Source: Escherichia phage HH3. From it: a DNA stretch of 44,661 nt. The DNA is taken from sequence record PP759150; one strand, given 5' to 3'. The notes beneath the pieces were generated by a model that worked only from the letters and a program-made list of their open reading frames with translations, did not search any database and was not told the origin of the DNA. Below are positions 2,061-40,382 of this stretch, piece after piece. Positions within the stretch are counted from its first letter, which is position 1. The number at the start of each line of letters is the position of its first letter. The position numbers were made by a program, and so were the translations under genes.

Positions 2061-2351
2061 ATGGATAAGCTAAACGAGTGGCTATTCGCCCTGGCATGTC
2101 TGGCGGGTGGCTTCGTAGGCGCACGCATTCATGGCGATGCTACGAAGGGGCCGCTAAACTTCGTTTTGTATGTCGTAGTTGGCTTCCTGTGTGCCATATT
2201 TGGCGCACCGGCTATTGCCGAGTGGGCTGGTTTGTCGGGGGAGCGCACTGTCGCCGGTTTGGGCTTCGTAACCGCAATCTTCTGGATGCCAATCGCCGAC
2301 CGGATCAGGGAGACTATTGCGTCGTTCCGACTTCCGGGAGGTGCAAAATGA
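2061..2351 (+). CDS. holin-like membrane protein (96 aa)
   Basis: Two to three hydrophobic segments; immediately upstream of the endolysin; ATGA overlap with next gene. Confidence 0.6.
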   Translation: MDKLNEWLFALACLAGGFVGARIHGDATKGPLNFVLYVVVGFLCAIFGAPAIAEWAGLSGERTVAGLGFVTAIFWMPIADRIRETIASFRLPGGAK

Positions 2352-2593
2352 TTATCTCCGTCCTGTTGTTTGTTATCATCGGGGCTTCGTCCCTGTTTAA
2401 CGTGTATGCGCCGTCCGTCCAGGATGGCATTTTCGGTCGGGTGCTGTATCTGCTAACGGCAATGGTCTGTATTATCGGATTGTTGCAAACAGGAGACGTA
2501 TCTGATACCACCTGGACCGCGTTAATCTGGCTGTTTGCATTGCGCACCCTGCGTAATGCTGTTTTGAATGAGGTAAAACATGCGATTCAGTGA
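2348..2593 (+). CDS. small membrane protein, holin or antiholin partner (81 aa)
   Basis: Strong RBS gggagg; two hydrophobic segments; C-terminal part of track ORF 2078-2593, which I consider N-terminally over-extended. Confidence 0.5.
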   Translation: MIISVLLFVIIGASSLFNVYAPSVQDGIFGRVLYLLTAMVCIIGLLQTGDVSDTTWTALIWLFALRTLRNAVLNEVKHAIQ

Positions 2594-3071
2594 CAACGGT
2601 CTAAGATTCACGGCAGCATGGGAGGCTTTCAGCCCGGTGCCGTATTTCGCGACCAAGAAAGAGCAGGCCCGCGGCCTGTACACCTGGGGTTATGGTCATA
2701 CAGGCACTAATCCGCCTCGAAGCATTACCCGCGAGGAAGCGCTGGCACTGCTCAAGCGCGATGTGGCGTATGCCGAGGCTTGGGTGAACAAATACGCGCA
2801 TAAGAGCATTAACCAGGCGCAATTCGACGCGCTGGTGGACCTGGTAATCAACGCCGGTCCTGGCCCGATCGTACCGGATGACGTCGCCGGTGACTTCGAC
2901 GATGCTGTCCGCCTGGGTGACTGGGCAAAAGTCCGGGCTACACTGCCACAATTCCGCAAGCAAGGCGGGGAAGTGCTTAAGGGTCTGGTACGCCGTGCAA
3001 TCGGCAGACAGGCGTTATTTGATGGTAAGCAGTGGGACGTTGCCGAGCGAATCGGTCGTAACGCTGCATAA
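2580..3071 (+). CDS. endolysin, glycoside hydrolase family 24 (T4-lysozyme-like)
   Basis: Motif region ...KKEQARGLYTWGYGHTG... matches the GH24 lysozyme catalytic-region pattern; follows holin-like genes. Confidence 0.8.
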   Translation: MRFSDNGLRFTAAWEAFSPVPYFATKKEQARGLYTWGYGHTGTNPPRSITREEALALLKRDVAYAEAWVNKYAHKSINQAQFDALVDLVINAGPGPIVPDDVAGDFDDAVRLGDWAKVRATLPQFRKQGGEVLKGLVRRAIGRQALFDGKQWDVAERIGRNAA

Positions 3072-3255: not shown

Positions 3256-3262
3256 ACAATCA

Positions 3263-3286
3263 AGCCCGGTTAATTCCGGGCTTTTT
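3263..3286 (+). terminator. rho-independent terminator
   Basis: agcccgg-ttaatt-ccgggct followed by TTTTT. Confidence 0.7.
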
Positions 3287-3327: not shown

Positions 3328-3486
3328 ATGGCACGTAAAGATGTTTGGGTATTGGCAATCTGGACCACCGCGGCTTTTATCGGCATGGTTATTTGCGAAT
3401 TGATATTGCCCGCCGCCATATGGACCGTGGTATATTGTCCACGGTCCACTAATCAGGAATTAATTAAATATGCACCCGCAAACTAA
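3328..3486 (+). CDS. small membrane protein (52 aa)
   Basis: RBS agaggag 8 nt upstream of ATG at 3328; hydrophobic core VWVLAIWTTAAFIGMVICELILPAAIWTVVY; 9-mer motif at 3299-3306 just upstream. Confidence 0.45.
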   Translation: MARKDVWVLAIWTTAAFIGMVICELILPAAIWTVVYCPRSTNQELIKYAPAN

Positions 3487-4612
3487 AATTACCGATGAGC
3501 AATTGATCGCAGAAATTCAGGCAGGGACTACGGTTAAAGAGATTGCGAAGAAATACGGCATTGCACTTCGAAATGTCTATATGCGCAAAGCCCGCCTATC
3601 GAAAAAGGGAATTGGTCACGGTAATGATGCCGTGATCCGTAAGCGAGTTGCAGATGGCTTCGGGGTTAAACGCGTGTCTGCCCTGGTGCGCGGTAATGGC
3701 GAAGAGGTCATGTCGTGGGTCATCACTGAGCAGGATAAGGAGCGCCAACTCGAAGCCATGCGCGCTGTGGTCGAGGGTATGAACAGCGAAATCACACCGG
3801 CAGCGCCCGTAAACGCCCCATGCCAGTATACCCAGGCGCTCGACTTGCTCAACCTGTACACTGTGTCCGACTTCCACCTGGGTATGCTGGCATGGGGCGA
3901 GGAGACTGGAGAAGATTGGGATATGGCGATCGCCGAAGACCTGTTCTACCGCTGGTTTGTCGAAGCCTTCGCACGCGCACCAGACGCAGGCACTGCCGTG
4001 ATCAACATCCTCGGGGATATGGCCCACTTTGATAGTCTCGATGCCGTCACCCCTGCCAGCGGGCACGTATTGGACGCCGACACCCGGTACCAGAAGTTGG
4101 TCCGCTACATGATTCGCATGGTGCGCAACGTCGTAGAACTTGCGCTGCAAAAACACTACAAAGTCAAACTGCTAATCGTCCAGGGTAATCATGACGAATC
4201 CGGTATGATTTGGCTTGCTGAGATGTTCAATACCTTGTATGAGAACGAGCCGCGCGTCGATGTGGACACGTCCCCGGACGTCTACAAAATGGTGCAGCAC
4301 GGTAAGACTACGCTATTTTTCCACCACGGGCACAAAGCGCGATTCGATGTTATCGAGCAGGTTATGATCGCTAAATTCAGACAGGCGTTCGGGGCGAGCG
4401 AATACAGCTACGCGCACGTAGGCCATTTGCACCACCAGAAGATTGTTGAATCCCGCAACATGATTGTTGAACAGCACCGGACGCTCGCAGCGAAAGACGC
4501 CTACGCCAGTCGTGGCGGTTGGATGTCCGGTCGCAGCGCAAACGTCATCACCTATAGCGCCAACTACGGAGAAGTAGCGCGCTTAACCATTAGCCCGGAA
4601 ATGTTGAAATGA
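3470..4612 (+). CDS. HTH domain fused to calcineurin-like metallophosphoesterase (Mre11/SbcD-like motif set), 380 aa
   Basis: N-terminal HTH-like TTVKEIAKKYGIALRNVY; phosphoesterase motifs SDFHLG, GDMAHFD, GNHDE, GHLHH in canonical order. Confidence 0.6.
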   Translation: MHPQTKITDEQLIAEIQAGTTVKEIAKKYGIALRNVYMRKARLSKKGIGHGNDAVIRKRVADGFGVKRVSALVRGNGEEVMSWVITEQDKERQLEAMRAVVEGMNSEITPAAPVNAPCQYTQALDLLNLYTVSDFHLGMLAWGEETGEDWDMAIAEDLFYRWFVEAFARAPDAGTAVINILGDMAHFDSLDAVTPASGHVLDADTRYQKLVRYMIRMVRNVVELALQKHYKVKLLIVQGNHDESGMIWLAEMFNTLYENEPRVDVDTSPDVYKMVQHGKTTLFFHHGHKARFDVIEQVMIAKFRQAFGASEYSYAHVGHLHHQKIVESRNMIVEQHRTLAAKDAYASRGGWMSGRSANVITYSANYGEVARLTISPEMLK

Positions 4613-4821
4613 TCAGACAAGTATTCATGAGCACGCAGGCCACCCGCCTGAAAGAACTACGCAAACAACTCGAAGGCTTGCGCCGATTCGAACAAACGGC
4701 AGCGGCGGTAGGCATGTCTATCAGCGAACGGATCGAGATACTATCGCAAATACGCTACACAGAGGGCGCGATAAGCGAAGTACAAAGCATGTTAACCCGA
4801 TACTACGGGCGCGACGTTTAA
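4609..4821 (+). CDS. hypothetical coiled-coil protein (70 aa)
   Basis: ATGA coupling with upstream gene. Confidence 0.4.
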   Translation: MIRQVFMSTQATRLKELRKQLEGLRRFEQTAAAVGMSISERIEILSQIRYTEGAISEVQSMLTRYYGRDV

Positions 4822-4938
4822 ACCGCATAGCCTGCCGATTTGGTGGGCTTTTTTGTGCCTGTTATAATCCCCCTTAGATGGCAGGGCCGTCTCCTATGTT
4901 GCCGATGGTCGGCGCATATGAACAAAAGGGCTTATATC

Positions 4939-5490
4939 ATGGCAGAAATCAAAGTTAAGGGCCGACGCGCCAAACTGGACGGACGAGTAGCAGTAACCCC
5001 GCGCCGTAAACCAGGCGAGCAAACCGAGCATACCAATCTCGGACCTGAAATCGAGTACGGAAAGCGCCGTAAAGGCGGCAAATGTGGACGCCCTACTGAC
5101 TACCGATCCGTTTACTGCGACCAGCTTCGCCGCTATTTTGCCGACGCCGACGCCTGGCAGGTAAACTACTCCGATAAAGGCGCTGCGCAAGTAATCCCCC
5201 GCAACAAAATGCCAACCTTCGGTCGATTTGCCGCGGAAATCGGTGTGGGCGTAGCTTGCCTGTATCGCTGGGCGCGTGCGCATGAGGAGTTCGCCGAGGC
5301 GATGGCTGACGCTATGGAGTTGCAGAAAACCTTCCTGATGGAAGCTGGCGGCGTGACCATCGCGGCGGGCTTCGCTACATTCCTGCTTAAAGCAAACCAC
5401 GGCGTCCGCGACGACGTACCGCTGGATGACGACGAAGATGATAACGGCGACGTCGTTGTGGAACCTACCGGCAAAGGTCAGGGTGATTAA
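4939..5490 (+). CDS. terminase small subunit (start uncertain, 4918 or 4939)
   Basis: Position directly upstream of TerL; TerS-like segment FGRFAAEIGVGVACLYRWARAHEEFAEAM; acidic C-terminus. Confidence 0.6.
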   Translation: MAEIKVKGRRAKLDGRVAVTPRRKPGEQTEHTNLGPEIEYGKRRKGGKCGRPTDYRSVYCDQLRRYFADADAWQVNYSDKGAAQVIPRNKMPTFGRFAAEIGVGVACLYRWARAHEEFAEAMADAMELQKTFLMEAGGVTIAAGFATFLLKANHGVRDDVPLDDDEDDNGDVVVEPTGKGQGD

Positions 5491-6875
5491 TGCGTAACTA
5501 TGCGGCAGAACATCGCGCACTGGAACGCGCGATCGCAAAGCGCAACCGACCGCCACGCCCTACACGCGTTGCGCAGGCCGTCCGCCTTTACCAACCTGAT
5601 TGCCTTCCGCACCAGGTCGAACTATTGCGCGACACGAAGACTAAAATCCTCGGCCTGTGTTCCGGCTTCGGTGGTGGAAAGTCGTGGGTCGCTGCGCGTA
5701 AGGTCATCCAGCTTTTAACCCTGAACCCAGGCCATGACGGCATCGTGACCGAACCGACTATTCCACTCCTGGTTAAAATCATGTATCCGGAACTGGAGAA
5801 GGCATTCGACGAGGCTGGCTTCCGGTGGAAGTTCAATAAGCAGGACAAGATCTACAACGTGCTGGTGAAAGGCAAATGGACCCGCGTTATATGTGAATCA
5901 ATGGAGAATTATACCCGCCTGATCGGGGTCAACGCCGCGTGGATTGTTGCCGATGAATTCGACACCACTAAGCAAGACGTTGCTATGGCGGCATATCACA
6001 AATTGCTCGGTCGTCTGCGTGCTGGCTTCGTCCGCCAGTTCGTCATCGTGTCAACGCCTGAAGGCTACCGGGCGATGTACCAAATTTTCGAGGTGGAGAA
6101 AGACAACCAGAAACGCTTGATCCGGGCGAAGACCACGGACAACCACCATTTACCGGCAGACTTTATCGACACGCTGCGCAGTCAGTACCCGGCTAACCTG
6201 ATCGACGCGTACCTGAACGGCCTGTTTGTTAACCTTACGTCGGGCGCGGTGTACAAGATGTTCAACCGCGAGGAGAACGCCAGCACCGAAGAAGTGAAGC
6301 CGGACGACACGCTGATTATCGGTATGGACTTTAACGTCACGAAGATGGCGGCGGTTGTGTACGTCAGACGGCAGCGAGTCACCGAGAACAAGGAGTTCCG
6401 TGACGAGATTCACGCGGTGGATGAATTTGTGGACCTGTTTGACACCCCGGCTATGATTGAGGCGATCGAAGAGCGCTACCCGGAACATTGTGCCGCCGGT
6501 AGGGTCGTCGTTTACCCGGATAGCAGTGGCAAGTCCCGCAAAACGGTTAACGCGTCGTCGTCCGATATCGCACAACTGGAAGACGCTGGCTTTGATGTGG
6601 AATATGACAGCGTTAACCCGCCAGTGAAAGACCGATTGATCGCGATGAATACGATGATGTGCAACTCGAAGGGGGTGCGCCAGTATTTTGTCAACCTGGA
6701 TAAATGCCCTACACTAGCGAAATGTCTGGAACAGCAGGTGTATGACCTGAAGAAAGGCGAACCGGATAAGACCGCCGGTGTGGACCACATGAATGACGCG
6801 GCTGGCTACCCTATTGCGCACTTGTTCCCTGTGATTCGTCCGATCGCCGTTGTTCCAACCGTAGACTTCTACTAA
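5490..6875 (+). CDS. terminase large subunit (461 aa)
   Basis: Walker A-like LCSGFGGGKSW near N-terminus; size and position before portal. Confidence 0.85.
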   Translation: MRNYAAEHRALERAIAKRNRPPRPTRVAQAVRLYQPDCLPHQVELLRDTKTKILGLCSGFGGGKSWVAARKVIQLLTLNPGHDGIVTEPTIPLLVKIMYPELEKAFDEAGFRWKFNKQDKIYNVLVKGKWTRVICESMENYTRLIGVNAAWIVADEFDTTKQDVAMAAYHKLLGRLRAGFVRQFVIVSTPEGYRAMYQIFEVEKDNQKRLIRAKTTDNHHLPADFIDTLRSQYPANLIDAYLNGLFVNLTSGAVYKMFNREENASTEEVKPDDTLIIGMDFNVTKMAAVVYVRRQRVTENKEFRDEIHAVDEFVDLFDTPAMIEAIEERYPEHCAAGRVVVYPDSSGKSRKTVNASSSDIAQLEDAGFDVEYDSVNPPVKDRLIAMNTMMCNSKGVRQYFVNLDKCPTLAKCLEQQVYDLKKGEPDKTAGVDHMNDAAGYPIAHLFPVIRPIAVVPTVDFY

Positions 6876-8407: not shown

Positions 8408-9494
8408 TCAATATATGGCGGATCGAATGATTCGCCGACACATCTTCACCCAGCGCCTGAGTAATGACCAGGCGCGAAGGGTGCTGTCCATGTGGGGGAA
8501 GTTCCGGCCTACATTACTGGGAAAGCTGACTGAGTTACTTGATGGCAAATCGTCAATGAATAACAAGGCACTTTCCACTCTGTTAACGCAAATCGACAAG
8601 ACTGTTAAAGCAGAATTGCGCACCGAGTTTAAGGCGTTGGCTGAAAGCCTTCAGGAGTTTGCCGACACCGAGGCCGATTATCTCGCCGACACATTAACGG
8701 CAGCGATCCAGCCGGTGGTCGCCGTACCTGCGGTCGAGGTGGTTGGCGTAGTGACCGGTGCGCAGATCGCAGCGACTGCGATGAAGAACCCGTTCCAGGG
8801 TAATACTATGATGCAATGGCCTGACTCACTTTCTGAGTGGACCAGGACGCAGATCGGTAATCAGGTGCGGGCGGGATTCATCCAGGGCAAGCCAACGATG
8901 GAAATTATAGCGGACGTGAGGCGCGCACTCGGCGGTCGTAGTGCGCAAGCTATCTCAAGCGTTGTTAAGTCCGCAGTCAACCACTATGCGGCGACAGCCC
9001 GCGAATTAATGGTGAAAGCTAATGACGATATTCTCGAAGGTCGCCAATGGTTATCTACATTGGACACGCATACTTCTCCCATGTGCCAGCTACGCGATCG
9101 CCTGTTTTATCCGGTTGATGTTACTCCCGACACCAAAGGAAAGCGCGGCGGGAAAATGGTGGCTGGGTCACAATATGGCGCTGGGCCGGGCAAGTTGCAT
9201 TATTGTTGCCGGTCTACGGAGACGTGGAAGGTTAAAGGCATGGAAGATTGGCCCAGTGGTAAGCGTCCGGCACTAAAGGCTGACGCGGGCAGATTGCTGA
9301 GTGAGCAGGTTGACGCGCAGACTGATTTCTTCTCATGGGTGCAGCGCCAGCCGCGCCATATCCTGGAAGAGTTATACGGAGTGCAACGCGCCGACCAGAT
9401 TATGCGCGGCGTGAAAGTGCCGAAGATGTTCACCGATTCCGGCGAACTAATGACTATCGCACAGCTTAAAAACCGGGGGTTATGGCGTGATTAA
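8391..9494 (+). CDS. head morphogenesis protein (Mu gpF / SPP1 gp7-like minor head protein)
   Basis: Follows portal; contains the GKLHYCCRS Cys motif typical of the Mu F-like domain. Confidence 0.65.
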   Translation: MAKTINQYMADRMIRRHIFTQRLSNDQARRVLSMWGKFRPTLLGKLTELLDGKSSMNNKALSTLLTQIDKTVKAELRTEFKALAESLQEFADTEADYLADTLTAAIQPVVAVPAVEVVGVVTGAQIAATAMKNPFQGNTMMQWPDSLSEWTRTQIGNQVRAGFIQGKPTMEIIADVRRALGGRSAQAISSVVKSAVNHYAATARELMVKANDDILEGRQWLSTLDTHTSPMCQLRDRLFYPVDVTPDTKGKRGGKMVAGSQYGAGPGKLHYCCRSTETWKVKGMEDWPSGKRPALKADAGRLLSEQVDAQTDFFSWVQRQPRHILEELYGVQRADQIMRGVKVPKMFTDSGELMTIAQLKNRGLWRD

Positions 9495-9816
9495 GTATGC
9501 GGCTATTGGGCTGGTTATAGGTCTGGCGGTAGGATTCTGGCTAGGTGACTCCTATCGCGCTGGCGTAGTGGCGGAGGCGGCGCAAGAAGCGCAAGCCGAA
9601 GCACAACGGCAGCAAACTAAAGTTGTTGAGCGCTCCGTGCAGGCAGAACAAGCCCGCGACGTGGAATACCGGACTATCACGAAAGAGGTTGTAAAATATG
9701 TTACGCGCCCTAACCGCCCTGATTGTAGTTTTGATGCTGAGCGCGTGCGGATCAAGCAACGTGCCGTTGATGCCGCTAACGGAGTCGGCACTGCGACCGC
9801 CGTGCAAGTTCGATAG
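9487..9816 (+). CDS. Rz-like i-spanin (109 aa)
   Basis: N-terminal transmembrane anchor IGLVIGLAVGFWLG followed by charged coiled-coil region. Confidence 0.6.
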   Translation: MIKYAAIGLVIGLAVGFWLGDSYRAGVVAEAAQEAQAEAQRQQTKVVERSVQAEQARDVEYRTITKEVVKYVTRPNRPDCSFDAERVRIKQRAVDAANGVGTATAVQVR

Positions 9817-9928
9817 CCCGTCCGCAGACCCCGACGAGGATTTGATGATTGACGTGAAAAATATGGAATGCGGGGCGAAGCTAAGGGCGCAGGTGCTGGA
9901 GTTGCAGCAAATAATTAAGGGGCCGTAA
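9698..9928 (+). CDS. Rz1-like o-spanin lipoprotein (76 aa), overlapping Rz in another frame
   Basis: Signal peptide with lipobox LSAC, Pro-rich mature part; out-of-frame overlap with Rz-like gene is the classic spanin arrangement. Confidence 0.6.
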   Translation: MLRALTALIVVLMLSACGSSNVPLMPLTESALRPPCKFDSPSADPDEDLMIDVKNMECGAKLRAQVLELQQIIKGP

Positions 9929-38716: not shown

Positions 38717-38959
38717 TCAAGCATTTTCATTAAAAAGATTTCGGGTCACGTAGTTGGTGGCGTTCTCGACCCAGCTTAGCGGCGGGCGTTCGATGTTCTT
38801 TTCCACCCAATAGACGGCAGCTTCGCTATAGCCGTCGTCCAGCCAGCGGGTCGGGTGGCGAATCATCCAGGCCACCATTAACACGCCTTGCACACAATGC
38901 AGGATAAAGCCCAGTGCGCCGAGCAAAAACATCAATAAGATTGCGAATACTTTATTCAT
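38717..38959 (-). CDS. small membrane protein (80 aa)
   Basis: Two hydrophobic segments FAILLMFLLGALGFIL and VLMVAWMI. Confidence 0.5.
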   Translation of the reverse strand: MNKVFAILLMFLLGALGFILHCVQGVLMVAWMIRHPTRWLDDGYSEAAVYWVEKNIERPPLSWVENATNYVTRNLFNENA

Positions 38960-40382
38960 TGCTTAAGTCCTCGTCTGTAGCTTCCGACCACGCAGGGCGC
39001 GGGTCGTCGATTGGTGCTAACACAGGTTTAGCGGGTGCGCGTGTGATTTTAGCACACAGCTTCGCCCACACTTTCGGTTTTTCGTCCTTCAGCACCTTCT
39101 CGGCATCTGTCGGGCTGAGCAATGTTTCTTTGTACATCACATCGCGCTTGATCCGGGCCTTCGTGAATATTTCAATCACTTCGCTCTCGTCCGCCCACTT
39201 ACGGATCCCTTCCTTACCGGCAACCATCTTAAGGCCCAACGATTCGCCATCGCCCGCCATGACCGCCTTGAATACCGCGGATTCGATAGCTTTGATGTGC
39301 TGGCGCATTGCGTCAAGTCCTTCATAAGCCTTGCGCAGTTCCGCCGCGCTCATAGCGCCTGGGGTGGATTCCTTCTTGCCCCGTTTAGCACGTCGGGCAG
39401 CCTTCCGGGCTTCGCGGGCCATATTGCGGTCGTGGTTGGCGCACTCTTCCTCGGTTGCCACGCTCACGTCGTCGCCCAGGTCTTCGTCGGTTGCCGTTGG
39501 TGGCGTCATCGTGTCGATTGCGGCCTTCGCCCGGATGCTGCACTGGTCCGCAAATCTGCACCACTGGCACGCATCGACGCTGGGCCGGAAGTCGGCGCGG
39601 GTTAGTCCCTTCTTGCCGCGGGCGTATGCATCGAGCGCGGCGATAGCACGCTTGGACGCAAACGTCGCGAATATCTCCAGCGCTTCCACTGAGATATCCC
39701 ACTCTGACGCCCCGCCGCAATACGGCTGGAAGATGACCAGGCGCACGGTCGTAATGTCATACATGGTTTGCAGCTTGCGCAGCAGTCCGAGCGCGTACAA
39801 CATAAGCTGTTTGTTTTCTTTCGCCTCGACCTTATGCCGCCCGGTCTTCAGGTCGCCAACAATCAGCATGTACGTGCCATCGGTCTTCTTCGTGACCATG
39901 ACCATATCGGCAGTGCCGAACGTCTTAACCTTGTTACCGTCGATCTCGACTCCTGGGTGGAGGACGCGGGTGAGATCGGCGCGCATCTCAAGCTGGACAA
40001 ACTCCGCCACTTCGAGGAGCGGTCGCCAGTGGTCGATGTACGCGTCGCACTGTTTCACCATATCGTCGTTGACCAGTACGCCGCCTTTCGGTGCTTTCGG
40101 GTGCGCCTTTACTGGCCCCTTGCCTTCATTCTCGACGTAACACCCTTTATACGTCTTTGCTGTTATCAGCTTTTCACCGGCGATAATGCGGTTTAGCACC
40201 ACTTCAGATACGGTGTGCATACTCGTACCATTAATCGCGGCCTGTCCTGATTCGTTCGGGATATCTTTTTCGACCACCAGGGCGGCGGGACACCCCATCC
40301 ATTTTTTAGCACCGGATGGGCCAAGTAATGAGTGTTCCGTATTGCTACCGGATTGCGTTTTACGTTTTGGTTTAATCGCCAT
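38952..40382 (-). CDS. PD-(D/E)xK exonuclease, Cas4/RecB-like (DUF2800-like), 476 aa
   Basis: N-terminal HSLLGPSGAKKWMGCP signature; C-terminal Cys cluster CQWCRFADQC. Confidence 0.65.
   Translation of the reverse strand: MAIKPKRKTQSGSNTEHSLLGPSGAKKWMGCPAALVVEKDIPNESGQAAINGTSMHTVSEVVLNRIIAGEKLITAKTYKGCYVENEGKGPVKAHPKAPKGGVLVNDDMVKQCDAYIDHWRPLLEVAEFVQLEMRADLTRVLHPGVEIDGNKVKTFGTADMVMVTKKTDGTYMLIVGDLKTGRHKVEAKENKQLMLYALGLLRKLQTMYDITTVRLVIFQPYCGGASEWDISVEALEIFATFASKRAIAALDAYARGKKGLTRADFRPSVDACQWCRFADQCSIRAKAAIDTMTPPTATDEDLGDDVSVATEEECANHDRNMAREARKAARRAKRGKKESTPGAMSAAELRKAYEGLDAMRQHIKAIESAVFKAVMAGDGESLGLKMVAGKEGIRKWADESEVIEIFTKARIKRDVMYKETLLSPTDAEKVLKDEKPKVWAKLCAKITRAPAKPVLAPIDDPRPAWSEATDEDLSNE

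What the first reader, a model, noticed from the sequence alone, without database searches (positions are those of the whole stretch)
3470..4612. HTH-fused metallophosphoesterase with Mre11/SbcD-like motifs directly upstream of the terminase genes
The 380-aa protein has an N-terminal helix-turn-helix and a complete calcineurin-like phosphoesterase motif set (SDFHLG, GDMAHFD, GNHDE, GHLHH). In cos-type phages an HNH endonuclease often sits beside the terminase and assists DNA end processing; a DNA-binding phosphoesterase or nuclease here could play a similar role. Alternatively it could be a protein phosphatase or a nucleotide-signal-degrading enzyme. The fusion and its position are unusual.
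Basis: partly seen in the sequence, partly recalled or inferred. Interest (0 to 1): 0.55.

Follow-up and report, generated by a model that had tools for sequence, protein, structure and literature searches.

The report
HTH-tethered Mre11-like phage phosphoesterase
This gene encodes a DNA-binding domain fused to an Mre11-like metal-dependent phosphoesterase; it belongs to a very common, already catalogued but biochemically untested phage family that sits among DNA-metabolism genes in other phages, so its place next to the terminase here is probably incidental.

Summary
ORF 3470-4612 (+, 380 aa) encodes an N-terminal helix-turn-helix, a flexible linker, a conserved beta-hairpin/helix element and a complete binuclear metallophosphoesterase (MPE) core, and every metal ligand is invariant in 75 diverse relatives.

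The window is the genome of Escherichia phage HH3 (a Dhillonvirus), where the gene is already annotated 'DNA repair exonuclease'. It matches PHROG 704 end to end (E 1e-160) and has homologues in more than 2,000 phage records.

The catalytic core is specifically related to phage Mre11/SbcD:
- Profile against T4 gp47: 92% probability over the whole nuclease domain.

It is not a canonical Mre11. It has no capping domain, and the phage encodes no Rad50/SbcC partner.

The terminase-helper idea is not supported. Only Dhillonviruses place the gene before TerS, and there a 70-aa ORF and a terminator-like hairpin intervene. In ten other lineages, which use different packaging strategies, it sits among nucleases, PNK, ligase and nucleotide-salvage genes.

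Best reading: a Rad50-independent nuclease, tethered to DNA, that acts in phage DNA metabolism. This is inferred; no activity has been tested. Interest is low to moderate.

The parts
3262..3283 (+). Terminator-like hairpin upstream of the unit (8-bp stem with 6 GC pairs, followed by TTTTATT)
   Evidence: Found by the consensus scan. Folds at -16.4 kcal/mol, z -4.6 against shuffles. Function inferred.
3328..3486 (+). Unannotated 52-aa ORF with a hydrophobic core. GAGGAG lies 8 nt before its ATG, and it overlaps the MPE start by 17 nt.
   Evidence: Sequence. No PHROG or PADLOC match. Whether it is a gene is uncertain.
3470..4612 (+). HTH-metallophosphoesterase gene (380 aa), a member of PHROG 704
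   Evidence: ORF. PHROG 704 E 1.4e-160 over aa 5-380. 100% identical to the Escherichia phage HH3 protein named 'DNA repair exonuclease'.
3494..3604 (+). N-terminal three-helix HTH (aa 9-45), followed by a low-confidence linker (aa 46-60)
   Evidence: Model helices at 9-17, 22-29 and 33-45; block-mean pLDDT falls to 68 (aa 41-50) and 55 (aa 51-60). HTH Pfam hits across family members.
3659..3787 (+). Conserved beta-hairpin plus helix (aa 64-106; G77 and W83 nearly invariant). It is part of the family core and is kept even in HTH-less members.
   Evidence: Model strands 64-73 and 79-88, helix 90-106. Conservation. Campylobacter phage F374 protein starts at this element.
3836..4609 (+). Binuclear metallophosphoesterase core (aa 123-380). 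Motifs: I D134-x-H136; II G182-D183-x-x-H186; family-specific insertion VTPxSGHxLDADxR (T194, D202, R206); III G239-N240-H241-D242; IV H286; V G318-H319-x-H321; C-terminal TLAAxDAYAxRGGW signature shared with T4 gp47.
4609..4821 (+). 70-aa ORF translationally coupled to the MPE gene through an ATGA overlap; function unknown (phrog_20931)
   Evidence: It is not homologous to the small ORFs found at the same position in other lineages.
4829..4849 (+). Terminator-like hairpin between the unit and TerS (9-bp stem followed by TTTTTTG)
   Evidence: Folds at -15.2 kcal/mol, z -2.8. Function inferred.
4918..6875 (+). Context only: terminase small subunit (about 4918-5490) and large subunit (5490-6875)
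   Evidence: phrog_3064 E 2e-73. Terminase_6N E 1.4e-13 and Terminase_6C E 1.8e-7.

Best explanation
The gene encodes a stand-alone, Rad50-independent nuclease of the Mre11/gp47-like branch of the binuclear metallophosphoesterases.

Proposed mechanism: a flexible N-terminal helix-turn-helix holds the enzyme on DNA, and the two-metal active site hydrolyses phosphodiester bonds. The enzyme acts in phage DNA metabolism. It would trim DNA ends or replication and recombination intermediates, break down host DNA to supply nucleotides, or do both. It probably works alongside the phage's PD-(D/E)XK exonuclease and Gp2.5-like annealing protein. It is not a dedicated partner of the terminase.

Shown here: the domain architecture, an intact and invariant active site, the specific remote homology to gp47, the absence of a capping domain and of a Rad50 partner, and the variable genomic position of the gene.

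Inferred: DNA as the substrate, nuclease activity, and the biological role.
For: 1. Catalytic competence: all metal ligands are invariant in 75 diverse relatives, and the model is confident (pLDDT 91.3).
2. Nuclease-branch affinity:
- Profile-profile match to T4 gp47: 92%, E 6.4e-7, covering gp47 residues 3-221.
- Like-for-like single-sequence hhalign: 83.5% for gp47, against 0.1-5% for lambda NinI, a NinI-like phosphatase, Bxb1 gp47, E. coli CpdA and E. coli SbcD.
- The Foldseek top hit is Thermotoga Mre11.
- Related phage proteins are independently auto-named 'DNA polymerase II small subunit'.
3. DNA targeting: the N-terminal module is always a DNA-binding module but is interchangeable. It is a single HTH in most members, a tandem HTH in P0140 and an InsA-type zinc ribbon in phage P24.
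4. Neighbourhood in other lineages:
- helicase, VRR-NUC nuclease and Dam methylase (tonn);
- primase and PNK (MEW1);
- exonuclease, endonuclease and PNK (megetsur);
- resolvase-like nuclease, dNMP phosphatase and dNMP kinase (P24);
- thymidylate synthase (V17);
- DNA ligase (F374);
- HNH endonuclease;
- deoxyribosyltransferase-like protein.
5. The same full-length architecture occurs in T7-like and N4-like phages that encode their own RNA polymerases. That argues against a role for the HTH in host-RNAP gene regulation.
6. Precedent: T4 gp46/47 is required for recombination and host-DNA degradation (record annotation), and the mycobacteriophage MPE Gp48 damages host DNA (PMC12287305).
Against: - No biochemical or genetic data exist for any member of this family that I could find.
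- E. coli SbcD as a single sequence is not detected (3%), and gp47 does not cross-hit phrog_704. The link to Mre11 is therefore remote.
- The gp47 profile used for the 92% match is shallow (9 sequences, at least 73% identical).
- Neighbours such as PNK, dNMP phosphatase and dNMP kinase fit a nucleotide or end-healing phosphoesterase equally well.
Confidence: 0.55

Rival explanations
1. Terminase accessory nuclease. The HTH-MPE binds near pac or the genome ends and helps the terminase cut or trim DNA during packaging, as HNH proteins do in cos phages.
For: - In Dhillonviruses the gene lies about 300 bp upstream of TerS.
- The orthologue in phage vB_EcoS-B2 (97% identical) was found in CsCl-purified virions: 13 peptides, 36.6% coverage (PMC5945888). 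This could reflect association with packaged DNA.
Against: - The adjacency is lineage-specific. Ten other lineages place the gene elsewhere.
- The family spans phages with pac-headful, direct-terminal-repeat and T4-type packaging.
- A terminator-like hairpin separates the gene from TerS.
- TerL keeps its own nuclease domain.
- DNA polymerase I was also detected in the same virion preparation, which suggests carry-over of DNA-binding proteins.
Confidence: 0.07
2. Nucleic-acid end-healing or nucleotide-salvage phosphoesterase. The enzyme removes 2',3'-cyclic or 3'-phosphates, or hydrolyses nucleotides or short oligonucleotides. It would work with PNK and ligase in RNA or DNA repair, or with dNMP kinase and phosphatase in nucleotide-pool remodelling, rather than cutting long DNA.
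For: - PNK lies immediately downstream in MEW1 and one gene away in megetsur.
- DNA ligase is adjacent in F374.
- dNMP phosphatase, dNMP kinase, a deoxyribosyltransferase-like protein and thymidylate synthase are neighbours.
- From general knowledge of the family: MPE-type phosphatase modules exist in bacterial Pnkp end-healing enzymes.
Against: - No PNK was annotated in the collinear slur05 genome; the small protein named 'DNA ligase' there was not examined.
- A small-molecule enzyme has no obvious need for a conserved DNA-binding head.
- Sequence and fold affinities point to gp47, Mre11 and DP1 rather than to lambda-phosphatase-like modules.
Confidence: 0.12
3. Anti-defence enzyme that degrades cyclic nucleotide or oligonucleotide immune signals (CBASS, Pycsar, type III CRISPR, Thoeris-like).
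For: - The family is phage-specific and widespread.
Against: - hhalign to E. coli CpdA gives 4.2%.
- The DNA-binding N-terminal modules are conserved in kind.
- The gene sits in core DNA-metabolism modules rather than in early accessory or anti-defence islands.
- It is reported among the most conserved genes of phi80-18-like podoviruses (PMC7316996); that phi80-18 g34 belongs to this family was not verified.
- No PADLOC-related model matches.
- No defence-escape screen that used Dhillonviruses hit it.
Confidence: 0.08
4. Transcription factor with an attached enzyme domain. The sigma-70 region 4/LuxR-like HTH would switch on late (lysis and packaging) genes.
For: - HTH hits to Sigma70_r4_2 and GerE.
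- In several siphophages the gene lies at the boundary between replication genes and lysis or packaging genes.
Against: - The same architecture occurs in T7-like and N4-like phages that have their own RNA polymerases, and there it sits inside DNA-metabolism modules.
- The HTH is the least conserved part of the protein and can be replaced by a zinc ribbon or be absent.
- The catalytic residues, by contrast, are invariant.
Confidence: 0.05
5. Lambda-type Ser/Thr (or Tyr) protein phosphatase acting on host proteins.
For: The protein belongs to the same calcineurin-like superfamily.
Against: - hhalign gives 0.8% to lambda NinI and 0.1% to a phage NinI-like phosphatase.
- NinI falls in phrog_246 with no cross-hit to phrog_704.
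- The motifs are DxHLG, GDxxH and GNHD, not GDxHG, GDxVDRG and GNHE.
- Vibrio phage pYD21-A carries both a NinI-like phosphatase and this family, so the two are not redundant.
Confidence: 0.02

Closest known systems
T4 gp47 / bacterial SbcD / archaeal-eukaryal Mre11 (nuclease subunit of the Mre11-Rad50 complex; phrog_100)
   Same: - Same five-motif binuclear MPE nuclease domain, including the His after the GD of motif II.
- 92% hhalign probability over the whole gp47 nuclease domain.
- A shared C-terminal TL(A/T)AxD...RGxW signature.
   Different: - No capping domain and no Rad50-binding C-terminus: gp47 residues 222-339 have no counterpart.
- The phage encodes no Rad50/SbcC/gp46.
- About 120 extra N-terminal residues (HTH plus beta-hairpin/helix).
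- A family-specific insertion between motifs II and III.
- No cross-hit between phrog_704 and phrog_100.
PolD small subunit DP1 (archaeal 3'-5' proofreading exonuclease)
   Same: - Also an Mre11-like MPE nuclease with an N-terminal nucleic-acid-binding module.
- Phage relatives are auto-annotated with this name.
   Different: - 13% sequence identity.
- No PolD catalytic subunit in the phage, which carries a PolA-type polymerase.
- DP1's N-terminal module is an OB fold, not an HTH (general knowledge).
Mycobacteriophage Cluster A MPE (Bxb1 gp47 / A10ZJ24 Gp48; phrog_221)
   Same: A stand-alone phage MPE with no Rad50 partner. Gp48 has phosphodiesterase activity, damages host DNA and is needed for phage replication in M. 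tuberculosis (PMC12287305). It is the closest functional precedent.
   Different: - Not detectably related beyond superfamily motifs: hhalign 5.1%, 2.8 bits against the family profile.
- A different PHROG.
- No HTH, and only 255 aa.
Pseudomonas putida MPE / PdeM (Mn-dependent ssDNA endonuclease of the Lhr-ligase repair operon)
   Same: A stand-alone MPE nuclease next to ligase and helicase genes (PMC7826289, listed). The Campylobacter phage homologue also neighbours a DNA ligase.
   Different: - NCBIfam PdeM E 0.64, not significant.
- No HTH.
Lambda NinI Ser/Thr protein phosphatase (phrog_246)
   Same: A phage-encoded member of the calcineurin-like superfamily.
   Different: - Different motif variants.
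- hhalign 0.8%.
- Both proteins occur together in one phage.

Membership tests
Calcineurin-like binuclear metallophosphoesterase superfamily | Five motifs supplying the metal ligands (DxH, GD, GNH[DE], H, GHxH) | tested here: met
   D134/H136, D183, N240/H241, H286 and H319/H321 are present. All are invariant except H319, which is at least 90% conserved, in 75 relatives.
Calcineurin-like binuclear metallophosphoesterase superfamily | Beta-sandwich MPE fold | tested here: met
   [not shown]
Calcineurin-like binuclear metallophosphoesterase superfamily | Pfam Metallophos or Metallophos_2 at the gathering score | tested here: not met
   22.6 bits against a cut-off of 27, and 20.3 against 21.5. 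This divergent family sits just under the Pfam thresholds. 21 of 75 members hit Metallophos at E <= 0.01.
PHROG 704 ('DNA repair exonuclease') | Full-length match to the family profile | tested here: met
   E 1.4e-160, 535.7 bits, aa 5-380 against profile positions 2-390 of 390.
Mre11 / SbcD / T4 gp47 nucleases | Homologous nuclease (MPE) domain | tested here: met
   [not shown]
Mre11 / SbcD / T4 gp47 nucleases | Match to an SbcD/Mre11 family model | tested here: not met
   No hit to phrog_100, and gp47 and SbcD do not hit phrog_704. No NCBIfam SbcD model matched.
Mre11 / SbcD / T4 gp47 nucleases | C-terminal capping domain and Rad50-binding helices | tested here: not met
   The protein ends about 24 residues after the region aligned to gp47 residue 221, and gp47 residues 222-339 have no counterpart.
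Mre11 / SbcD / T4 gp47 nucleases | Rad50/SbcC/gp46 ATPase partner encoded alongside | tested here: not met
   None appears in the collinear slur05 annotation. HH3 ORFs of at least 300 aa are structural proteins, polymerase, helicases and a PD-(D/E)XK nuclease. No conserved neighbour exists in other lineages.
Mre11 / SbcD / T4 gp47 nucleases | Mn-dependent exo- and endonuclease activity on DNA | not testable with these tools
   Requires purified protein.
PPP-type Ser/Thr phosphatases (lambda NinI) | GDxHG, GDxVDRG and GNHE motifs and profile similarity | tested here: not met
   [not shown]
Class III cyclic-nucleotide phosphodiesterases (CpdA / Rv0805) | Profile or fold similarity exceeding that to other MPE branches | tested here: inconclusive
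   [not shown]
HNH-terminase packaging module of cos phages | Accessory nuclease gene conserved next to terminase genes across relatives | tested here: not met
   Adjacent to TerS only in Dhillonviruses; located elsewhere in ten other lineages.
Helix-turn-helix DNA-binding domains | Tri-helical HTH recognised by HTH profiles | tested here: met
   The query itself is below threshold. Family members reach Sigma70_r4_2 1.5e-9 and GerE 2.4e-8. The model shows three helices at aa 9-45. DNA binding itself was not tested.

The most novel reading that the evidence does not exclude
The protein is a virion-associated, Rad50-independent Mre11-like nuclease. It would be packaged with, or bound to, the phage DNA and delivered into the cell, and it would act at the very start of infection. 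Possible early roles are attacking host DNA, processing the incoming genome ends, or blunting DNA-end-sensing defences. This would define a new functional class of minimal 'HTH-Mre11' enzymes shared by thousands of virulent phages.
Probability: 0.1. Interest if true: 0.65.

Novelty: already known. Interest (0 to 1): 0.3.

Why it matters
The family is very large. It has homologues in more than 2,000 sequenced phages, comprises 4,636 clusters at 50% identity, and occurs in siphoviruses, T7-like and N4-like podoviruses and T4-like myoviruses. It also appears to behave as a conserved gene in several groups. Yet no member has been tested, and public names conflict: phosphoesterase, DNA repair exonuclease, transcriptional regulator, wHTH protein, hypothetical.

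If it is indeed an Mre11-type nuclease that works without Rad50, using a simple DNA-binding head instead, it would be a minimal model for how Mre11 chemistry can be targeted. It would also fill a gap in the DNA-metabolism map of T1-like, Dhillonvirus and Jersey-like phages, which are widely used in therapy and in defence-system research.

For this particular window the practical message is modest. The gene is ordinary for its phage group, and the terminase link is probably coincidental.

Tried and rejected
1. PDB sequence searches. The single-sequence search gave only spurious repeat-protein hits. The family profile gave marginal hits to GerE (E 0.026) and Thermotoga Mre11/SbcD (E 0.31).
2. 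NCBIfam and PADLOC found nothing significant.
3. The search for related loci with the 75-sequence alignment failed because no stretch was conserved enough. I replaced it with manual sampling of 11 annotated contexts.
4. Search for a conserved partner. The small ORFs that overlap the MPE stop codon in HH3, megetsur, V17 and AP-16-3 are not homologous. No Rad50/SbcC is present.
5. Nine literature searches found no functional study of this family.
- Phage Tn-seq covered unrelated phages.
- The defence-escape screens with SECphi18 and SECphi27 hit other genes.
- Ksap1, the Avs2 trigger of Dhillonviruses, is a different small gene at another locus.
- Proteomics of T1-like phages (seven gel bands) did not list this protein. 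The Sfin-1 and STEP3 papers do not mention it.
6. Homology to the characterised mycobacteriophage MPE (Bxb1 gp47 type) was rejected: hhalign 5%, different PHROG.
7. No sigma-70-like promoter was found between the upstream hairpin and the gene, so the timing of expression remains unknown.
8. The gp47 homologue search returned only close T-even relatives, at least 74% identical. The gp47 profile is therefore shallow.
Full report
**What is there.** The window is the complete 44,661-bp genome of Escherichia phage HH3. The 380-aa product of ORF 3470-4612 (+) is 100% identical to an NCBI protein of that phage named 'DNA repair exonuclease', found on a contig of exactly that length. Megablast places the phage among Dhillonviruses, with 90-95% identity to more than 100 records. 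In an alignment of 75 relatives sharing 32-81% identity with the query, D134, H136, G182, D183, N240, H241, H286, G318 and H321 are invariant, and H186 and H319 are at least 90% conserved. The active site is therefore under selection.

**The N-terminal helix-turn-helix.** For this protein alone the evidence is weak (GerE E 0.017). Across the family it is firm: Sigma70_r4_2 reaches 1.5e-9 and GerE 2.4e-8, and several other HTH models each hit 8-16 of the 75 members.

**Structure.** An AlphaFold2 model built from the 75-sequence alignment has mean pLDDT 91.3 and pTM 0.79. It shows:
- a three-helix bundle at aa 9-45;
- a low-confidence linker at aa 46-60;
- a beta-hairpin plus helix at aa 64-106;
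- an MPE core at aa 123-380.

**How common it is.** The protein matches PHROG 704 over its full length (E 1.4e-160). tblastn finds it in 2,059 phage records: Escherichia, Klebsiella, Salmonella, Vibrio, Campylobacter, Flavobacterium, Roseobacter-group and other phages. An exhaustive HMMER scan finds 4,636 clusters at 50% identity with E <= 1e-3. Public names are inconsistent and include putative phosphoesterase, calcineurin-like phosphoesterase, DNA repair exonuclease, transcriptional regulator, HTH LuxR-type, sigma70_r4_2 domain protein, winged-HTH protein and hypothetical protein. The fusion is thus the standard architecture of a large family, not an oddity.

| Test | Result |
|---|---|
| Foldseek vs PDB | Thermotoga Mre11 first (E 2.6e-7); Rv0805, DP1, GpdQ and purple acid phosphatases within about tenfold |
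| Foldseek vs BFVD (viral models) | relatives auto-named 'DNA polymerase II small subunit'; SbcD-named phage proteins only near E 1e-6 |
| hhalign, family profile vs single sequences | T4 gp47 83.5% (187 columns); Bxb1 gp47 5.1%; E. coli CpdA 4.2%; E. coli SbcD 3.1%; lambda NinI 0.8%; NinI-like phage phosphatase 0.1% |
| hhalign, profile vs 9-sequence gp47 profile | 92.0%, E 6.4e-7, 186 columns covering gp47 residues 3-221 |

The alignment to gp47 includes a C-terminal signature beyond the canonical motifs: TLAAKDAYASRGGW in HH3 against TLTAGDENDPRGFW in gp47. The catalytic domain is therefore specifically, though remotely, related to phage Mre11/SbcD. It is clearly not a lambda-type protein phosphatase.

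**Why it is not a canonical Mre11.**
- gp47 and SbcD fall in phrog_100, Bxb1 gp47 in phrog_221 and NinI in phrog_246. None cross-hits phrog_704 or its sister phrog_284, and HH3 hits none of those families.
- The protein ends shortly after the region aligned to gp47 residue 221, so there is no capping domain and no Rad50-binding tail.
- The phage encodes no Rad50/SbcC/gp46. HH3 is collinear with the annotated slur05 genome over 91% of its length.
- HH3's ORFs of at least 300 aa are structural proteins, a PolA-type polymerase, helicases and a DUF2800/PD-(D/E)XK exonuclease.
- The family has its own insertion between motifs II and III (VTPxSGHxLDADxR, with invariant T194 and nearly invariant D202 and R206), and an N-terminal extension of about 120 residues.

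**Is it linked to the terminase?** Within Dhillonviruses the gene order is holins, endolysin, 55-aa ORF, MPE, 70-aa ORF, TerS, TerL, portal. Stable terminator-like hairpins flank the unit formed by the small ORF, the MPE gene and the 70-aa ORF. They lie at 3262-3283 (-16.4 kcal/mol, z -4.6) and 4829-4849 (-15.2 kcal/mol, z -2.8). Elsewhere the position differs:

| Phage | Lineage | Position of the gene |
|---|---|---|
| tonn | T1-like (Drexlerviridae) | end of the helicase/VRR-NUC/Dam module, before the holin |
| SE126_1PISJ | Jersey-like | an island between tail genes, with HNH and Ant |
| MEW1 | Jedunavirus | after primase, overlapping a PNK gene |
| megetsur | T7-like (Bonnellvirus) | DNA polymerase, exonuclease, endonuclease, MPE, small ORF, PNK, phosphodiesterase, RNA polymerase |
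| V17 | N4-like | after dCMP deaminase and thymidylate synthase |
| F374 | T4-like Campylobacter phage | an HTH-less form next to DNA ligase |
| P24 | Alteromonas phage | between a resolvase-like nuclease and dNMP phosphatase plus dNMP kinase |
| pYD21-A, 99E28-4b | Vibrio phages | next to a deoxyribosyltransferase-like gene, or next to HNH |
| AP-16-3 | Sinorhizobium phage | among hypothetical genes only |

These phages package DNA in different ways, so a conserved role in packaging is unlikely. HH3's TerL keeps its own RNaseH-like nuclease domain, and TerS weakly resembles the P22 gp3 and Sf6 types. Public Dhillonvirus records start at arbitrary points. Both observations fit headful packaging rather than cos packaging. 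That is an inference, not a measurement.

**Why DNA is the likely substrate.** The N-terminal module varies but is always a DNA-binding type: a single HTH in most members, a tandem HTH in P0140, and an InsA-type zinc ribbon in phage P24. The beta-hairpin and MPE core stay constant. The HTH is the least conserved part of the protein, and a flexible linker connects it to the core. That pattern fits a tether better than a sequence-specific regulator. The same architecture occurs in phages with their own RNA polymerases. Together with the affinity to gp47, Mre11 and DP1 and the DNA-metabolism neighbourhoods, the most economical reading is a Rad50-independent nuclease. It would act on DNA ends, on replication or recombination intermediates, or on host DNA. 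Precedents are T4 gp46/47, annotated as required for recombination and host-DNA degradation, and the unrelated mycobacteriophage MPE Gp48, a phosphodiesterase that damages host DNA (PMC12287305). This step is inferred. I give it about 0.55.

**Loose end.** In phage vB_EcoS-B2, whose orthologue is 97% identical, the protein was detected in CsCl-purified virions with 13 peptides and 36.6% coverage, ranking above several tail proteins. DNA polymerase I was detected in the same preparation (PMC5945888). This may be carry-over of abundant DNA-binding proteins. If it is real, it would mean delivery with the genome, which is the novel case (probability about 0.1). Gel-band proteomics of T1-like phages did not list the protein.

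**Literature.** I found no functional study of this family. Defence-escape screens that used the Dhillonvirus SECphi18 hit SSB, the DNA polymerase and Ksap1, not this gene. In phi80-18-like podoviruses a phosphoesterase gene (g34) is listed among the most conserved genes (PMC7316996). I did not verify that g34 belongs to this family.

**Verdict.** The terminase-helper idea and the claim of unusualness are not. The gene is an ordinary member of a catalogued but uncharacterised phage family. Interest is 0.3, mainly because the family is very large, conserved and untested.

Noticed in passing
window 2061-3071 and 9487-9928: The lysis genes are split. The holin(s) and endolysin lie upstream of the MPE. 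An Rz-like i-spanin ORF (9487-9816), with an embedded +1-frame lipoprotein-like ORF (9698-9928, ...LSACGSS...), lies after the head-morphogenesis gene, about 6.4 kb away. The packaging genes sit in between.
   Followed up: partly
window 3328-3486 (+): An unannotated 52-aa ORF with a strong Shine-Dalgarno sequence and a hydrophobic core overlaps the MPE start by 17 nt. It has no PHROG or PADLOC match. Some relatives annotate an opposite-strand ORF here instead.
   Followed up: partly
window 4609-4821 (+): A 70-aa ORF (phrog_20931, unknown function) is translationally coupled to the MPE gene through an ATGA overlap. Small ORFs overlap the MPE stop in the same way in megetsur, V17 and AP-16-3, but they are not homologous to it or to each other.
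   Followed up: yes
window 3262-3283 and 4829-4849: Two stable terminator-like hairpins bracket the MPE unit, which suggests it is transcriptionally insulated from both the lysis genes and the terminase genes. No sigma-70-like promoter was found between the first hairpin and the gene.
   Followed up: partly
public records OQ221563.1 and MG065667.1: 'Acinetobacter phage NJ01' is 93.7% identical to this E. coli Dhillonvirus over 2.6 kb. 'Campylobacter phage A127' (47 kb) carries a T1-like full-length homologue. The host labels look doubtful.
   Followed up: no
L007 (Alteromonas phage P24) 3375-4475: The homologue carries an InsA-type zinc ribbon (Pfam E 2e-5) in place of the HTH. Representative P0140 has two HTH domains in tandem. 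The family swaps its DNA-binding head.
   Followed up: partly
other phage records (Jk06 JK_64P, Salmonella phage 36, phiJLA23, KpV79, P-GXEC-L2P5); phrog_20703 and phrog_20762: In several genomes the family appears as split or truncated ORFs, and separate PHROGs exist for the N-terminal half and the C-terminal end. The cause could be sequencing errors, pseudogenes or insertions of mobile elements.
   Followed up: no
Dhillonvirus genomes (PMC11564622); not located in the window: Dhillonviruses encode Ksap1, a 74-aa trigger of the Avs2 defence protein. It is described as lying between a methyltransferase gene and a 'phosphatase' gene, that is, at another locus with a second phosphatase-like gene.
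   Followed up: no
window 38952-40382 (-): The 476-aa 'exonuclease' is a DUF2800/PD-(D/E)XK nuclease. With the Gp2.5-like annealing protein annotated in slur05, it probably forms the phage's recombination pair, so the MPE would be an additional nuclease.
   Followed up: partly
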